A stretch of DNA of 64,000 bases from Escherichia coli (GCF_024223415.1 NZ_CP100500.1), one strand, 5' to 3'; shown: positions 12,001 to 21,000, counted from the first letter of the stretch. Numbers: made by a program.

Positions 12001-15000
12001 CCAGCACCGGACGCCCGGTACGAATGGATGTTCCCAGGTCACCATGAAACAGGTCGCTGACGTAGCGGTAAAACTGTACATACAGTGGCTGGTCCAGTCC
12101 CAGTTGCTGGCGAATATTTTCCACGATAGCATCGCTGGCGCGGTCACCCGCCAATAACCGCGTCGGATCGCCGGGGATCAGATGCGAGATAATAAACGTA
12201 ATCACACAGACCCCCGCCATCACGAGCACCAGCCCCCAGCAGCGTTGGCGTAAAATACTCCAGAAGGTCACGTTATTTACTCATGGTATTGATATTGAAG
12301 ACCTGTTCCAGCATGGGATTGAACACAAAGCCTTTCACCTCTTTGTTCATCGCCAGTTGGTAGTTTTTCTGGAACAGGTACACATAAGCAGCGTCATCAA
12401 TGACGATTTTCTGTGCCTGCTGGTAGTCCCGGGTACGCTGCGTCTGGTCGGTGGTCGCGAGCGCATTGCGTAGTAACTTATCGACCTCACTGTTTTCATA
12501 GAACGAGCGGTTACCCGGCAGACCTTTTTTGTCTGACTCAAACCAGTAATTCATAAACATATACGGGTCGGCAAAATCCGGGCTCCAGTTGCCAATCGCA
12601 ATGTCGTAATCACCTTTACCCACTCTGTCGCGCATGGTGGCGTTCGCCAGCTTTTCCAGCTTCACATTGATGCCCAGCTTGTTGAGACTGGATTGTGTTG
12701 CCAGAGCAATAGGCTCCCAGTTCGGATCATTATCAGAATAGAGAAACGTCAGGCTGGTGGGTTTGCTCTTCACTTTATCCCATTCGGCTTTGGCTTTCGT
12801 TTCGTCATGGTTGTATTGCATTGCCGTCGCATCGTAGCCCCACATGCCTTCCGGAATCGGGCCGCGCATCTGTTTTCCGTTACCACTCAGAATGCCGTTA
12901 ACCATGCCCTGATAATCGGTAGACCAGGAAATGGCCCGCCGCAGATCCGCCTGATTAAGTGGCGCTTTGCTGTTATTCAGATACAGATAGGTGACGCGCA
13001 GTGACGGATACTCTGCCACATTGACTTTATTTTCCTGCTTCAGGGCGTTGAGTTGATCCACCGGCAGCGCATCGGCAATGTCAATGTCGCCACGGGAGAG
13101 CTGCAGGCGACGGGAGGCACTTTCACCGATAATTTTTACCGATACTCGCTTAAAGTTCGGTTTATTGCCGGAGTAATGCGGATTTGGCACCAGAACTAAT
13201 TGCTGACCTTTTTGCCAGCTTTTCAGCATAAACGGTCCGGAGCCAGCGGTATTTTGCGCGAGGAAGCTGCGGGCATCATCCGCCGCATGTTCCTTTAACA
13301 CCGCCGGATTGATAATGGATGCACCGTCATTCGCCAGCGTGTAGAGGAACGGTGCAAATGGCTGGCTAAGGGTAAACTTCACCGTATGTTCGTCGGGAGC
13401 ATCAATCTTTAAATCTTTGGGAAATGCTTCTGCTGGCCCCTGGCCGATTTTTAGTAGCCGCTCAAAAGAAAGTTTTACTGCTTCGGCAGTGACAGGTGTG
13501 CCATCGGCAAATTTAGCATTATCTTTCAGGGTGAACGTCCACTCTTTTTGATCGTCAGACGCTTTCCAGCTACTTGCCAGATCGCCTTCAACGTCGGTTG
13601 AGCCTTTATCACCGTCCGTTTTGTACTGAACCAGCCGCTGATAAGACGGGTAGGTCACTGTCCAGTCGTTATTATCTATTGTTACCGCCGGGTCGAGGGT
13701 TTGTGGATCGGCGGCCTTACCAATCACCAGCATATCTTTCGGTACGGCGGCGTGCGCAACCGGGAAAGTTGTGGCAAGGACGAGCGCGAGCAATGTGGGA
13801 CGAAACGATATCGATCTCTTCATGACAGTTTCCTGATTAACTGACGTGCTGTGTGCCAGGGGATATAAAACAAGAGAATTGATCAGCGAGCAGTGGGTAA
13901 CTCGCTGCCTGGGGTAATTCGAAGTGCCACCATTCGCTGGAGATACCGACAAAACCGCCACCAGTCATAATCGCATTCAGCAACAGCCGATTGCGCTGAG
14001 CGGCGGGCGGGACGGAAGGATGGTAAGCATGGGAGCGCTCGTGCATTTCATCGAACCCTGCGCCCATATCGAGGATGTTCCCGTGCTCATCACGAAGCGT
14101 CAGGTCGATCGCCGTGCCACGGCTGTGATTAGAACCGACCGTCACATCAACAACATATTGCGGGTCTGGGCAGGCTTGCCACAACATCGCCTGTGCTTGT
14201 TGTGGGCGATACGCATCGTAAATCACCAGTTGTAAGCCTGATAGCTGGGCGATACTGATACTTTTCGCCAGCGCGGTAATCGCATCCTTGTGTAACAGAC
14301 AACGCGCTTGCTGGTAAATAGCTTTACCTGTGATGTTATCAGCGCAGGCGTATTTCAATTCGATCTCCAGATCAGGGAAGATCACGGCTAAATCAACCAG
14401 TTCGGTGGTATCCGACATAAACGGTTCCTGTATAAGACAAAAATTGCTGCGCTTTCCGCTTATGCAGATCTCATGCCATGCCGGGATAAGCGCCAGAATG
14501 CTGGCTTAAAGTTATATTTTTTAACTTTTGATCAACATTTGTGCAGCGTAGTGCAGTTTTGGTGCAAGAGGGGAAGTTAAGGAAGGAATCTCCCGGAATC
14601 GTAGCTGAAATCACAGTATTTAAGTGACAGTGTCACGTTAAATGAAAACCCGCGAGTGCGGGCGAGAGGAATTTGTCAGATTTTCAGCGGTAACACGCTG
14701 CTCATCCAGCCTGGAATTTCTTCGGCGGGTAGGGGGCGGGAAAAGAAATATCCCTGAATAACGCGACAGTGGATCTTGCGTAGCATCTCAAATTGCTCTT
14801 TGGTTTCGACGCCTTCCGCCACGACGGTTAAATTGAGGCTTTGCCCAATGCTGGTAATGGCTTCAAGTAAGGCAAGGATGCGTTTTTCCGTCAGACAACG
14901 ATCGACAAAACTTTTGTCAATTTTGATTTCCGTTACCGGAAGACTGACTAAGCGGGATAATCCGGAAAAGCCCGTGCCAAAATCATCTACCGATAAACCC

Positions 15001-18000: not shown

Positions 18001-21000
18001 CTACTGTCACTAAAGGTAAACGCGCGGGTCATCACTTCCATAGCGATATCAATACTGTTAATCGAGAAATGGTAGACCTGAAGTTTTTCTGCGGCGGAAT
18101 AATTCGAAGAGAAGATTACCGGATAGAGGATTTTTTTCAGCACCCGAAACCCCATCTCGACAATTTCTACCGGAATTCCTATGCGGGCATGCACTTCCGC
18201 GACGGTATGCTGGATTTGTATTAGCCTTTCGACATCGTCAACCTGGGCAGAAAGCACGTTAATAATCCAGCGTTCCATCGCACTCTTCAACTGCCGCTCA
18301 ACTTGTTCATTACTCAAGAATTCTTCGGCATGCGGGTCGATGCGGACAATTCGATAAAACTCAATACTAAGATAATGAGCATGCGCAACGGCAATTTCCG
18401 CGGCTTTAGCTCGAATGGGCGGATCTGCCTGTTCGACAAGTCCGGTCCACTCATCTTTCATTCTTTTAAAATACATCTCCATAATTCACACCCTTATAAG
18501 GCTGGGAAATCAGACGGAATCAAAACGAAACGCAACGTGCGAGATCGACTAACTGCACCATATTCTCCTGAAATATGAAGATATACTGAAAAGAAATAAG
18601 CGACTTAGGACAGTTTCAATCTACGCTACTGTTCTTCAGAAGAGTATAGCCCATCGTAATTATTTTTCGGTGACAGCGAATATCGTATGTTTTTTCATAT
18701 TCATACATTTTTATTAGGGGATTTATGGCTGTTTAACTAAGTGTGGTTAATTGCATGGTTAATTTGACTTTAGTAAGCATGATTAGTAGTGGGATAGTTC
18801 AAGAGGGTAACAAGCCGGTGGGTAATGTACCGGCTTGTTACAAAGTAAGAATGGGAGTTTAACTGCCCCAACGACTTTGCAGATAGCTGACCGCTTGTTG
18901 AGTCTGCGGTTTATTCAGATAGTCCTCACGGAACAAGATGGTGCCGCTAATTTCTGGTACCGCATCGTTAAGATCGAGCTGCTTTTTCAGTTCCGGTACG
19001 CCGCCGTTAATCATCCAGTCTGGCTCTATCTTTGAAGGTTCACCCACTTTATAGAAGGCGATACCGATATACAGGCGGGTCCTGGTCGGTTTAACGACAT
19101 CCGCCCACCATTTTGCCAACACGTCATAACGCGCGGCACTCCGTGAGAACGGCCAGTAAATTTGGGGAGCAATGTAATCCAGCAATCCTTGTTCCACCCA
19201 TCGACGAGTGTCAGCGTAGGATTCGTCATAGGCTGCCGCGCCTCGGGTATCGGAGCCGAGCGGATCGTGTGATCGGTTACGCCACACGCCTGCCGGGCTA
19301 ACACCAAATTCGACTCCCGGCTTAATGCTTTTAATGGTGTGCGATACTTTTGCAATTAACTGCTGAGTATTGTTGCGCCGCCAGTCTGCTTTTGACGCAA
19401 ATGCGCCTCCGTATTTACGGTACGTTTCGTTATCATTTAGCCGTGAACCCGGTGACTCAGTATAGAAATAGTCGTCAAACTGCACGCCATCTACCGGATA
19501 GCGGGAAACCACTTCTGCGACTATTGATGTGATCCAGTCCTGAACCTCAGGGATGCCCGGGTCGAGGACAAAGCGATCGCCAGACGTTCTGATCCAGTCA
19601 CGGTGTTGCACATAGACGCTCGCCGGTTGTTGAGACAGAGTGCTATTCAGTTCCCTGATAGTACCGGGCTTCGTATTAACCGATACGCGATAGGGGTTAA
19701 ACCAGGCGTGTACTTTCATCCCACGCTTGTGGGCTTCGTCGAGCATAAATTGCAGCGGATCGTAACCAGGATTTTCACCAATCTTACCGGTCATAAGATC
19801 GGACCATGGCAAAATTTTTGAAGGCCACAGGGCGGTACCGTCCGGCTTGACCTGGAAAAAGACCGTGTTTATACCGAGACGTTGCAGATGATCCAGTTTG
19901 TCGATCATCGCCTGTTGTTGTACACGGGCCCGGCTGGTGGGGTTACTAATGTTAACCGAGGAAACCGGTGGCCAGTCGAGGCGAGACACCGTGGCCAGCC
20001 AGATGCCACGCATCGGTTGTGACGATTGTTGCGTCGTGGCTGGTGGCTTTGAACCCGCTGGTGGTGTCACCATGGACTCTGGAGGCGTGCTTTTACAACT
20101 ACACAGTAAAAGTGCCAGTGCAACCAGTATCGCTGGTCTTCTAATCGTTAATTTCTCGTTTCGGGAGCAGATATCCATATGTGCTGGTTTCCGGTAAACA
20201 GATGTGCGCTCATTCTCGTACTTATCCCGGTTAAGTCAATACGACAGCAAGCACGAAAAAGGGAGCGATGAATTATCGCTCCCTTGTCTTATAACCATTC
20301 AGACATAGTTAGTGTTTCTTGTCATTCATCACAATATAGTGTGGTGAACGTGCACGCGGGTGCAGGAAGAAGTGACCTTTTGGTGCGTTCTTACTGTTGA
20401 TTGGCTCCAGAGTGACGCCGGTATTCGCTTTGCCTTTACGATCATGAACAGCATAGAGAATAAAGGGCAGGGCAAGTACCACCAGGAAACTAACGACCAG
20501 TAATTCAACATACATATCGGTAGAGTCACCCTGGATATTATCCGGCGGCAGGAAGGAAACAATAAACGCCATAATTGAAGTCAGCAGACCGACAATAGCC
20601 ACGACCAGTTTCACCCCTTTACCACCAGGGATATTAAATGTGCGTTTTAAGTCAGGATGTTTAAGAACCAACACAATGTAGCCAATAAACAGCATGAAAT
20701 AAGCACACAGATAAATCACCACCGTCAGCGCCAGTGCGATCAGGAAGGACATGTTGTTACCGCCACCGGTATTGGTGAGGATGATCAACGCGATAGAAGT
20801 AATCACCAGCTGCGAAATGACCAGCGTTACCGGTACGCCATTTTTGTTCATTTTAGCGAATGCCGCTGGCAGCAGGTTTTTCTGCGCTGTGACATACATC
20901 CCGCGAGAAGGACCAACAATCCAGGAGGCGATTTCCGCCAGAACACCCAGCAACAGCAGTGCGGAGATCACGCGAACCGTCCACTCAATTTCCGGTGCCA

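What the first reader, a model, noticed from the sequence alone, without database searches (positions are those of the whole stretch)
14676..18482. Three c-di-GMP turnover genes in one window (dosC, dosP, yneF/dgcF)
dosC (globin-coupled GGDEF) and dosP (PAS-GGDEF-EAL) form an operon, and a third membrane-anchored GGDEF protein with a GGEEF active site lies at 62247..63665. This is known biology, but the density of signalling enzymes near the acid-resistance and fimbrial loci is worth noting for regulatory cross-talk.
Basis: established knowledge. Interest (0 to 1): 0.2.

Follow-up and report, generated by a model that had tools for sequence, protein, structure and literature searches.

The report
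Known E. coli c-di-GMP genes dosCP, dgcF
The interval is the well-studied Escherichia coli oxygen-sensing dosC-dosP operon, and the third gene is the full-length form of the diguanylate cyclase gene dgcF; all three are correctly identified, already known, and no closer together than chance would place them.

Summary
The window is an E. coli chromosome, 99.96% identical to strain NCTC10444. On the minus strand, 17100..18482 is dosC: globin, DosC middle domain and GGDEF, with Tyr43, His98, GGDEF and an RSSD I-site. 14676..17075 is dosP: heme-PAS, PAS, degenerate GGDEF (EGTQF) and EAL, with His77, Met95 and Arg97. 62247..63665 is dgcF/yneF: a roughly 300-residue membrane domain plus GGEEF, with no I-site. 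DosC and DosP differ from K-12 by 2 and 4 residues, and both have solved structures. The two genes are 24 nt apart with no significant terminator-like site between them, are bracketed by hairpins, and are preceded by the small ORF yddY. The literature calls them an operon.

Corrections:
RefSeq uses 17075, which has the better Shine-Dalgarno sequence.
- The "density" is not beyond chance. With 28 loci on 4.64 Mb, a locus has a neighbour within 49 kb 44% of the time.
- No sequence evidence supports cross-talk with the gad or fimbrial loci.

Minor additions:
- This dgcF is the intact allele. K-12 lacks 498 bp (63233..63730), which is a published fact.
- The dgcF membrane domain is a divergent MASE1 relative.
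- About 21% of complete E. coli genomes lack most of dosC.

The parts
14676..17075 (-). dosP (pdeO, yddU): oxygen-sensing c-di-GMP phosphodiesterase, 799 aa from the RefSeq start. An in-frame ATG at 17099 gives the historical 807-aa form. Domains in 807-residue numbering: heme-PAS 33-132, PAS 150-261, degenerate GGDEF 386-533 (EGTQF), EAL 555-789.
   Evidence: NCBIfam DosP equivalog, 1642 bits against a cut-off of 857; 795/799 identical to K-12; full-length PDB entries 9cdr and 9bgv, plus 4hu3 and 1v9y. His77, Met95, Arg97 and EAL at 584.
17076..17099 (-). 24-nt dosC-dosP spacer. It carries GAGGT 5 nt upstream of the 17075 ATG. Its first three bases (17097-17099) are the alternative ATG, which abuts the dosC TAG stop codon.
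   Evidence: sequence. (RefSeq coordinates). PMC11543664, which notes the extra MRQDAEVI of the historical numbering.
17100..18482 (-). dosC (dgcO, yddV): globin-coupled diguanylate cyclase, 460 aa. Globin 27-155, DosC middle domain 180-289, GGDEF 297-452.
   Evidence: 458/460 identical to K-12. PDB 4zva and 4zvb (globin), 4zvc (middle domain), 4zve (GGDEF). Tyr43, Leu65, His98, GGDEF at 374 and I-site RSSD.
18520..18561 (-). yddY: 13-codon small ORF ([13 protein letters not shown]) in the dosC leader, preceded by AGGAG.
   Evidence: K-12 annotation, b4746. (the same ORF is present in the window).
18643..18650 (-). GCTATACT, a sigma-S-type -10-like element 82 nt upstream of yddY. It is a candidate dosCP promoter. 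This is an inference only.
   Evidence: a 19-nt stretch containing it is identical in K-12, NCTC10444 and ST95-32. RpoS dependence of DgcO and PdeO comes from PMC5635695. The simple sigma-70 scan found nothing here.
18807..18841 (-). 13-bp hairpin just after the digH stop. It is the likely digH terminator and the upstream boundary of the dosCP unit.
   Evidence: -21.0 kcal/mol, z = -7.3, and 0 of 200 shuffles fold as well.
14640..14663 (-). GC-rich hairpin plus a U-rich tail 13 nt after the dosP stop. It is the likely terminator of the operon.
   Evidence: terminator-like site.: -10.9 kcal/mol, z = -2.9.
62247..63665 (-). dgcF (yneF), full-length allele, 472 aa. Divergent MASE1-like membrane domain about residues 1-300 (62766..63665). 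GGDEF domain residues 303-461 (62283..62759) with GGEEF at 379 and no RxxD I-site.
63233..63730 (-). 498-bp segment missing from E. coli K-12. It covers the first 144 codons and first base of codon 145 of dgcF plus 65 bp upstream.
   Evidence: blastn breakpoints against NC_000913.3; present in 4196 of 5426 complete genomes. The deletion is published in PMC4287979 and PMC5635695.

Best explanation
The interval 14640..18841 (minus strand) is the intact yddY-dosC-dosP transcription unit of E. coli.

DosC carries heme in a globin domain (proximal His98, distal Tyr43) and makes c-di-GMP at a canonical GGDEF site that is subject to I-site feedback. DosP carries heme in its first PAS domain (His77, Met95, Arg97), has a catalytically dead GGDEF domain, and hydrolyses c-di-GMP to pGpG at its EAL domain when O2 is bound. 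Because the two are co-transcribed, they form an oxygen-tuned source/sink pair. The literature places this pair on the RNase E/PNPase degradosome and under RpoS control.

The third gene, 43.8 kb away, is the full-length dgcF. It is an inner-membrane protein with a divergent MASE1-type multi-helix domain fused to an active-looking GGEEF cyclase domain with no I-site. It lies in the conserved enterobacterial arrangement sad-glsB-yneG-dgcF-uxaB.

The presence of both loci in one 64-kb window reflects ordinary inherited gene order, not a functional cluster.

Shown here: ORFs, domains, catalytic and heme residues, near-identity to characterised proteins, gene spacing, flanking hairpins, and the chance level of the clustering.
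Taken from the literature: enzymatic activities, O2 regulation, operon transcription, RpoS dependence.
Inferred: the promoter position and the MASE1 assignment.
For: - ORFs and domains.
- Identity to K-12: DosP 795/799, DosC 458/460, DgcF 313/315 over the shared part.
- Identical RefSeq annotation and synteny ddpX-dosP-dosC-digH-gadC and uxaB-dgcF-yneG.
- Solved structures of the same proteins: 4zva to 4zvh, 9cdr, 9bgv, 4hu3, 1v9y.
- Functional residues are intact.
- The gap is 24 nt, with a Shine-Dalgarno sequence.
- Bracketing hairpins with z = -7.3 and z = -2.9; the only terminator-like site between the dosC start and the dosP stop has z = -1.5, which is not significant.
- Literature: dosCP operon and push-pull O2 control (PMC11543664); DgcO and PdeO are encoded in an operon, are RpoS-induced and bind RNase E (PMC5635695); His98 and Tyr43 (PMC5549716).
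- DgcF: the full-size form has a roughly 300-aa hydrophobic domain, an intact A-site, no I-site, and weak RpoS-dependent expression (PMC4287979). Shigella DgcF raises c-di-GMP (PMC11327459).
- Clustering is at chance level.
- The Enterobacter ortholog keeps the sad-glsB-yneG-dgcF-uxaB order.
Against: - Nothing contradicts the gene identities.
- No transcript data were available here, so co-transcription, the promoter and the terminators rest on sequence features and on the literature.
- The simple promoter scan found no sigma-70-type site upstream of dosC. That is expected for an RpoS promoter but is not positive evidence.
- The dosP start (17075 or 17099) is not settled by sequence alone.
- The window's DgcF does not itself reach any Pfam membrane-domain model, and the profile comparison with UhpB's MASE1 was negative. 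The MASE1 label is therefore family-level and indirect.
Confidence: 0.95

Rival explanations
1. The co-location is functional. On this reading the c-di-GMP enzymes DosC, DosP and DgcF are positioned near gadBC, ydeO-safA-ydeP and the yde fimbrial operon because they regulate, or are co-regulated with, acid resistance and fimbriation.
For: - The acid-resistance and fimbrial genes really do lie between the two loci.
- In Shigella flexneri, deleting dgcF raises acid resistance and expressing it lowers survival under AR1-inducing conditions (PMC11327459).
- dgcF sits directly downstream of glsB (glutaminase) and sad (succinate-semialdehyde dehydrogenase), which are glutamine/GABA-related genes, and this local order is kept in Enterobacter.
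- dosCP, dgcF and the gad genes are all stationary-phase or RpoS genes. For dosCP and dgcF this comes; for the gad genes it is established knowledge.
Against: - The clustering is at chance level: P = 0.44 for a neighbour within 49 kb, and 0.72 for a triple within 60.5 kb somewhere in the genome.
- The Shigella effect was seen under AR1 conditions and not under the glutamate-dependent AR2 conditions, so it does not point to gadBC.
- More distant DgcF homologs (40% and 33% identity) sit in unrelated contexts.
- In B2 strains dosC is deleted while gadBC and the fimbrial operon stay intact. In K-12 dgcF is 5'-deleted while gadBC is retained. The genes are therefore lost independently of their neighbours.
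- The published outputs of DosC and DosP are curli, PNAG and PNPase, not these loci.
Confidence: 0.08
2. DosP is translated from the ATG at 17099, giving the 807-residue protein the reader delimited. That start abuts the dosC stop (TAG-ATG), so DosP would be made by tight translational coupling rather than from 17075.
For: - The ORF is open from 17099.
- The stop and start are directly adjacent.
- All biochemical and structural work uses the 807-residue numbering and constructs that include MRQDAEVI (PMC11543664). PDB chains 9bgv and 9cdr carry those residues.
Against: - There is no Shine-Dalgarno-like sequence upstream of 17099, whereas GAGGT lies 5 nt before 17075.
- RefSeq, UniProt and the NCBIfam DosP model all start at the second ATG; the profile's position 1 aligns to residue 9.
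- The extra residues in the constructs are a cloning convention. They are not evidence about the native N-terminus.
Confidence: 0.2
3. [quoted passage not shown]
For: - The window's DgcF N-terminus gives no Pfam match, even at E <= 10.
- The family profile does not align with the UhpB MASE1 domain (probability 0.2%).
Against: - 52 of 77 diverse family members match Pfam MASE1 at E <= 0.01. One matches at 43.3 bits, above the 29.8-bit gathering score, and covers profile positions 4-297 of 299.
- That member matches the DgcF domain at E = 4.2e-17 in a search of 1.8 billion proteins.
- The family profile against the K-12 DgcE MASE1 domain gives probability 92% and E = 6.5e-7 over 217 columns.
- The membrane-protein controls GadC and LsrC give probabilities of 0.14% and 0.19%.
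Confidence: 0.12

Closest known systems
E. coli K-12 DosC/DosP (DgcO/PdeO; YddV/YddU; b1490/b1489), the dosCP operon
   Same: - Same genes at the same chromosomal position (ddpX-dosP-dosC-digH-gadC).
- Same lengths, and the same 24-nt spacer and yddY leader ORF.
- 458/460 and 795/799 identical residues.
- All heme-ligand and catalytic residues are identical.
   Different: Only allelic substitutions. Window to K-12: DosC N127D and K234E; DosP G146D, V313I, V501L and Q655H in 799-residue numbering. None falls on a checked functional residue.
Full-length DgcF (YneF) of EAEC 55989, O104:H4, EHEC O157:H7 and Shigella flexneri
   Same: The same 472-aa architecture described by Richter et al. 2014: a roughly 300-aa hydrophobic N-terminal domain plus a GGDEF domain with an intact A-site and no I-site (PMC4287979). 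O157:H7 and BL21 genomes match the whole gene at 99.4-99.5%.
   Different: Nothing substantive. Relative to K-12 b1522, this allele retains the 498 bp (63233..63730) that K-12 has lost.
MASE1-domain signalling proteins (Pfam PF05231), e.g. E. coli DgcE (YegE)
   Same: A multi-helix integral-membrane N-terminal domain of about 300 residues fused to a cytoplasmic output domain. The DgcF family profile aligns to DgcE MASE1 over 217 columns (probability 92%). Most diverse family members hit the MASE1 model. Some relatives carry a histidine-kinase output instead of GGDEF, as MASE1 proteins do.
   Different: - DgcF itself is below detection for the Pfam model.
- There was no alignment to UhpB MASE1.
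- DgcF has no PAS domains between the membrane domain and GGDEF, unlike DgcE.
B2-phylogroup dosCP locus (e.g. ST95-32, and CFT073 c1918/c1919)
   Same: The same locus with an intact dosP and the same upstream leader and promoter region.
   Different: In that form, dosC is reduced to a 165-bp 3' remnant plus a 45-bp fragment, and the ddp operon is absent. The window carries the intact form, as do about 78% of complete E. coli genomes.

Membership tests
DosC / globin-coupled-sensor diguanylate cyclase | N-terminal sensor globin (protoglobin-type) domain | tested here: met
   Pfam Protoglobin, 41.7 bits against a cut-off of 25, residues 27-155. PDB 4zva and 4zvb match at E about 1e-100.
DosC / globin-coupled-sensor diguanylate cyclase | Heme proximal His98 and distal Tyr43 (with Leu65) | tested here: met
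   Y43, L65 and H98 are present. Their roles are taken from PMC5549716.
DosC / globin-coupled-sensor diguanylate cyclase | DosC-type middle domain between the globin and GGDEF domains | tested here: met
   Pfam DosC_2nd, 165.9 bits against a cut-off of 31, residues 180-289. PDB 4zvc.
DosC / globin-coupled-sensor diguanylate cyclase | Catalytic GGDEF motif and RxxD I-site | tested here: met
   GGDEF at 374, with RSSD five residues upstream. Pfam GGDEF, 173.1 bits.
DosC / globin-coupled-sensor diguanylate cyclase | O2-modulated c-di-GMP synthesis | not testable with these tools
   Literature only: PMC11543664 and PMC5549716. The allele is 99.6% identical to the characterised protein.
DosP / heme-PAS c-di-GMP phosphodiesterase | Whole-protein match to the curated DosP equivalog model | tested here: met
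   NF008467, 1642 bits against a cut-off of 857, covering positions 1-800 of 800.
DosP / heme-PAS c-di-GMP phosphodiesterase | Heme-binding PAS domain with His77, Met95 and Arg97 (807-residue numbering) | tested here: met
   H77, M95 and R97 are present. PDB 1v9y and 1s66 match. The numbering convention is from PMC11543664.
DosP / heme-PAS c-di-GMP phosphodiesterase | Intact EAL domain and a degenerate GGDEF domain | tested here: met
   Pfam EAL, 235.6 bits, with the EAL motif at 584. The GGDEF domain scores 78.5 bits and has EGTQF at the motif position.
dosCP operon | Same strand, short spacer, no terminator between the genes, and boundaries on both sides | tested here: met
   24-nt spacer. 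Flanking hairpins with z = -7.3 and z = -2.9. The only terminator-like site near the junction, 17054..17037 inside dosP, has z = -1.5 (not significant) and a stem mismatch in ST95-32.
dosCP operon | A single transcript covering both genes | not testable with these tools
   Literature only: PMC11543664 and PMC5635695.
DgcF (YneF) diguanylate cyclase | Orthology to b1522: synteny uxaB-dgcF-yneG-glsB and near-identity | tested here: met
   Synteny. 313/315 identical over the part K-12 retains.
DgcF (YneF) diguanylate cyclase | GGDEF domain with an intact GG(D/E)EF A-site and no I-site | tested here: met
   [not shown]
DgcF (YneF) diguanylate cyclase | Integral-membrane N-terminal domain | tested here: met
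   Eight distinct non-overlapping hydrophobic 19-residue segments with Kyte-Doolittle score >= 1.5 (ten scan entries, two of them overlapping pairs). The AlphaFold model shows 9-10 helices between residues 17 and 304, with pLDDT 92.4.
DgcF (YneF) diguanylate cyclase | Cyclase activity | not testable with these tools
   Literature: the Shigella DgcF raises c-di-GMP relative to its GG-to-AA mutant (PMC11327459). The K-12 truncated form is not expressed (PMC5635695).
MASE1 (Pfam PF05231) | The protein itself reaches the Pfam gathering score | tested here: not met
   No MASE1 match for the window's DgcF, even at E <= 10.
MASE1 (Pfam PF05231) | Homology to bona fide MASE1 domains at the family or profile level | tested here: inconclusive
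   For:
- 52 of 77 relatives hit MASE1 at E <= 0.01, one above the gathering score (43.3 bits).
- hhalign against DgcE MASE1 gives probability 92% and E = 6.5e-7.
- The controls GadC and LsrC give probabilities of about 0.1-0.2%.

Against:
- hhalign against UhpB MASE1 gives probability 0.2%.

The most novel reading that the evidence does not exclude
DgcF may be wired into acid and glutamine/GABA physiology. On this reading, the full-length enzyme senses a membrane or small-molecule cue through its divergent MASE1-like domain, whose nearest solved fold is a ligand-binding ECF S-component. Its conserved position directly downstream of glsB-yneG and sad, together with the published Shigella acid-sensitivity phenotype, would then reflect a real functional link rather than inherited gene order.
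Probability: 0.1. Interest if true: 0.35.

Novelty: already known. Interest (0 to 1): 0.06.

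Why it matters
It matters little as a discovery. dosC, dosP and dgcF are catalogued members of the E. coli c-di-GMP network, with solved structures and published genetics. The use of this check is practical:
- The locus can be annotated with confidence.
- The window carries the intact alleles of both dosC and dgcF. dosC is lost in about a fifth of complete E. coli genomes, and dgcF is 5'-deleted in K-12 and related strains.
- The proximity argument for cross-talk can be set aside.
- The one small refinement is that DgcF's "orphan" membrane domain is probably a divergent MASE1. This would place it with DgcE, PdeF and PdeA among E. coli's MASE1-linked c-di-GMP enzymes.

Tried and rejected
1. **Clustering beyond chance: rejected.** Simulation gave P = 0.44 for a neighbour within 49 kb and P = 0.72 for a triple within 60.5 kb. 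A random 64-kb window holds two or more loci with P = 0.058, which is unremarkable when every window of a genome is scanned.
Only three GGDEF ORFs and one EAL ORF are in the window. dgcZ lies about 11 kb beyond the window end in K-12.
3. **Internal hairpin plus T7 run at 17054..17037 as an intra-operon attenuator: rejected.** It has z = -1.5, terminator-like sites in the region are at the shuffle expectation (6 found against 5.7 expected), and the stem is mismatched in ST95-32.
4. **The 773-bp difference from NCTC10444 as an IS insertion in the window: rejected.** There are no terminal repeats. The window has an intact fimbrial-subunit ORF where NCTC10444 has pseudogenes, so this is a deletion in NCTC10444.
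5. **Loss of dosC and of the dgcF 5' end in the same lineage: rejected.** The B2 strain LF82 has the full dgcF region, and K-12 has an intact dosC.
6. **Direct Pfam assignment of the DgcF membrane domain: no hit**. hhalign against UhpB MASE1 was negative.
8. **Synteny of distant DgcF homologs: no conserved neighbours beyond close Enterobacteriaceae**.

Full report
**What is there.** The window is an Escherichia coli chromosome. The 4.5 kb around the finding match 5413 of 5426 complete E. coli genomes and are 100% identical to strain NCTC10444. Over 64 kb the window is 99.95-99.98% identical to that strain apart from two indels. RefSeq annotates the identical DNA as dosP, dosC and 'sensor domain-containing diguanylate cyclase'. 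The gene order is ddpX-dosP-dosC-digH-gadC-gadB at one end and uxaB-dgcF-yneG-glsB at the other.

**Domain and residue checks.**
- DosC has Protoglobin (41.7 bits), the DosC middle domain (165.9 bits) and GGDEF (173.1 bits).
- DosP has two PAS domains, a GGDEF domain (78.5 bits) and EAL (235.6 bits). It scores 1642 bits on NCBI's DosP equivalog model, against a cut-off of 857.
- DgcF has only a GGDEF domain (138.4 bits, residues 303-461), behind about 300 hydrophobic residues.
- DosC keeps Tyr43, Leu65 and His98, GGDEF at 374 and an RSSD I-site.
- DosP keeps His77, Met95 and Arg97 (historical 807-residue numbering) and EAL at 584, and has EGTQF in place of GGDEF.
- DgcF has GGEEF at 379 and no RxxD.
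- Against K-12, DosC differs at 2 of 460 residues and DosP at 4 of 799. DgcF differs at 2 of the 315 residues K-12 retains.
- Both DosC and DosP have solved structures of essentially this sequence: 4zva to 4zvh, and full-length 9cdr and 9bgv, plus 4hu3 and 1v9y.
- A phmmer scan of every stop-to-stop segment shows no further GGDEF, EAL, heme-PAS or globin ORF in the window.

**Operon anatomy.** dosC ends with TAG at 17100-17102. An ATG follows immediately (17099), but RefSeq and UniProt start dosP 24 nt further on, at 17075. That start is preceded by GAGGT at a 5-nt spacing, whereas 17099 has no Shine-Dalgarno-like sequence. The eight extra residues (MRQDAEVI) are a historical construct and numbering convention (PMC11543664).

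Upstream, the digH stop is followed by a 13-bp hairpin (-21 kcal/mol, z = -7.3). Downstream, the dosP stop is followed 13 nt later by a GC-rich hairpin with a U-rich tail (-10.9 kcal/mol, z = -2.9). The 376-nt leader contains the 13-codon ORF yddY, which is annotated in K-12. It also contains a sigma-S-style GCTATACT that lies within a 19-nt stretch identical in K-12, NCTC10444 and a B2 strain. That promoter assignment is my inference.

One terminator-like hairpin lies inside the first codons of dosP (17054..17037). It is not significant (z = -1.5), its stem is mismatched in ST95-32, and terminator-like sites in the region occur at the shuffle expectation.

The literature states that dosC and dosP are co-expressed from one operon, are RpoS-induced, and act as an O2-tuned source/sink pair associated with RNase E and PNPase (PMC11543664; PMC5635695).

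**dgcF.** The window carries the full-length gene. K-12 lacks 498 bp (window 63233..63730) that span the first ~144 codons and 65 bp upstream. This is published: the deletion explains the K-12 start-codon misannotation and the lack of expression. The full-size protein was described as having a roughly 300-aa hydrophobic domain, an intact A-site and no I-site, with weak RpoS-dependent expression (PMC4287979; PMC5635695). The 498-bp segment is present in 4196 of 5426 complete genomes. The truncated class includes K-12 derivatives and some environmental and clinical isolates with K-12-like alleles, while BL21, O157:H7 and the B2 strain LF82 match the whole dgcF query region.

- An exhaustive HMMER search finds 404 representative clusters. 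Most are 460-490-aa proteins with the same membrane-domain-plus-GGDEF layout, and a few have a histidine-kinase output instead.
- 52 of 77 diverse members match Pfam MASE1 at E <= 0.01. One matches above the gathering score, at 43.3 bits and covering positions 4-297 of 299.
- The family profile aligns to the MASE1 domain of K-12 DgcE with 92% probability (E = 6.5e-7, 217 columns). The unrelated membrane proteins GadC and LsrC give 0.1-0.2%.
- The comparison with UhpB's MASE1 was negative, so I call the domain a divergent MASE1 relative rather than a proven member.

**Is the density meaningful?** dosCP is one locus, so the window holds two independent c-di-GMP loci 43.8 kb apart. K-12 has 29 GGDEF/EAL genes (PMC5635695), which I counted as 28 loci on 4.64 Mb. 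On that basis:
- A given locus has a neighbour within 49 kb in 44% of random placements.
- A triple as tight as dosCP-dgcF-dgcZ (60.5 kb in K-12) occurs somewhere in 72% of random genomes.
- A random 64-kb window holds two or more loci with P = 0.058.

The acid-resistance genes (gadBC, ydeO-safA-ydeP) and the yde fimbrial operon do lie between the loci, but nothing in the sequence ties them to the c-di-GMP genes. The genes are also lost independently. B2 strains such as ST95-32 have dosC reduced to a 165-bp remnant (and no ddp operon) with gadBC and the fimbrial operon intact. About 21% of complete genomes carry a form of this kind, and frequent absence of DosC is already reported (PMC5635171). 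The only evidence pointing towards cross-talk is published work showing that Shigella dgcF modulates acid survival under AR1 but not AR2 conditions (PMC11327459). In addition, the local order sad-glsB-yneG-dgcF-uxaB is kept in Enterobacter, although more distant homologs sit elsewhere.

**Verdict.** The corrections are the probable dosP start (17075) and the chance-level clustering. The additions are minor: the window carries the intact alleles of dosC and dgcF; the DgcF sensor domain probably belongs with MASE1; and the dosC and dgcF deletions have measurable frequencies among complete genomes. Interest is low.

Noticed in passing
window 63233..63730: This 498-bp segment (the dgcF 5' end plus 65 bp upstream) is missing from K-12. 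It is absent from about 23% of complete E. coli genomes, including some non-laboratory isolates with K-12-like alleles (river water, sediment, human). The papers describe the deletion as specific to K-12. Complete-genome collections are enriched for laboratory K-12 derivatives, so the true frequency is lower.
   Followed up: partly
window 17265..18523 (compared with L005, ST95-32): About 21% of complete E. coli genomes cover under 80% of dosCP. In the one such genome examined in detail (ST95-32), most of dosC is deleted, leaving a 165-bp 3' remnant and a 45-bp fragment. The start of yddY is fused to the remnant as a 57-codon chimeric ORF, dosP and its start region are intact, and the whole ddpXABCDF operon (window 8443..14596) is also absent. 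These strains would therefore have the O2-sensing phosphodiesterase without its partner cyclase.
   Followed up: partly
[not shown]
   Followed up: partly
window 18520..18561 and 18643..18650: The 13-codon ORF yddY, with its own AGGAG, sits in the dosC leader. A sigma-S-like GCTATACT lies 82 nt upstream of it. Both are conserved in K-12 and in a B2 strain. Whether yddY translation affects dosCP expression is unknown.
   Followed up: partly
window 17037..17054: There is a hairpin (AATGCC/GGCATT) followed by seven T's inside the first roughly 20 codons of dosP. It looks like a terminator, but it is not significant against shuffles and its stem is mismatched in ST95-32.
   Followed up: yes
window 43974..45225: The window has an intact 203-aa fimbrial major-subunit ORF (43974..44585) and an AraC-family ORF fragment (44971..45225). 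The closest genome, NCTC10444, has a 773-bp deletion here and annotates both as pseudogenes. The yde fimbrial operon in this window therefore looks complete: subunit, chaperone, usher, ydeS, ydeR and ydeQ.
   Followed up: partly
window 47310..49453: The ECSE_1600-family autotransporter gene is 5421 bp in NCTC10444. In the window it carries a 3277-bp internal deletion at about 48300, which is not a multiple of three. It is split into ORFs of 450 aa and 282 aa, so it is probably a pseudogene.
   Followed up: partly
L008 7560..8525 (Enterobacter cloacae): In Enterobacter, the dgcF ortholog is immediately followed by a second, GAF-GGDEF cyclase gene, and an MCP gene is inserted between sad and glsB. 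Neither gene is present at the E. coli locus.
   Followed up: no
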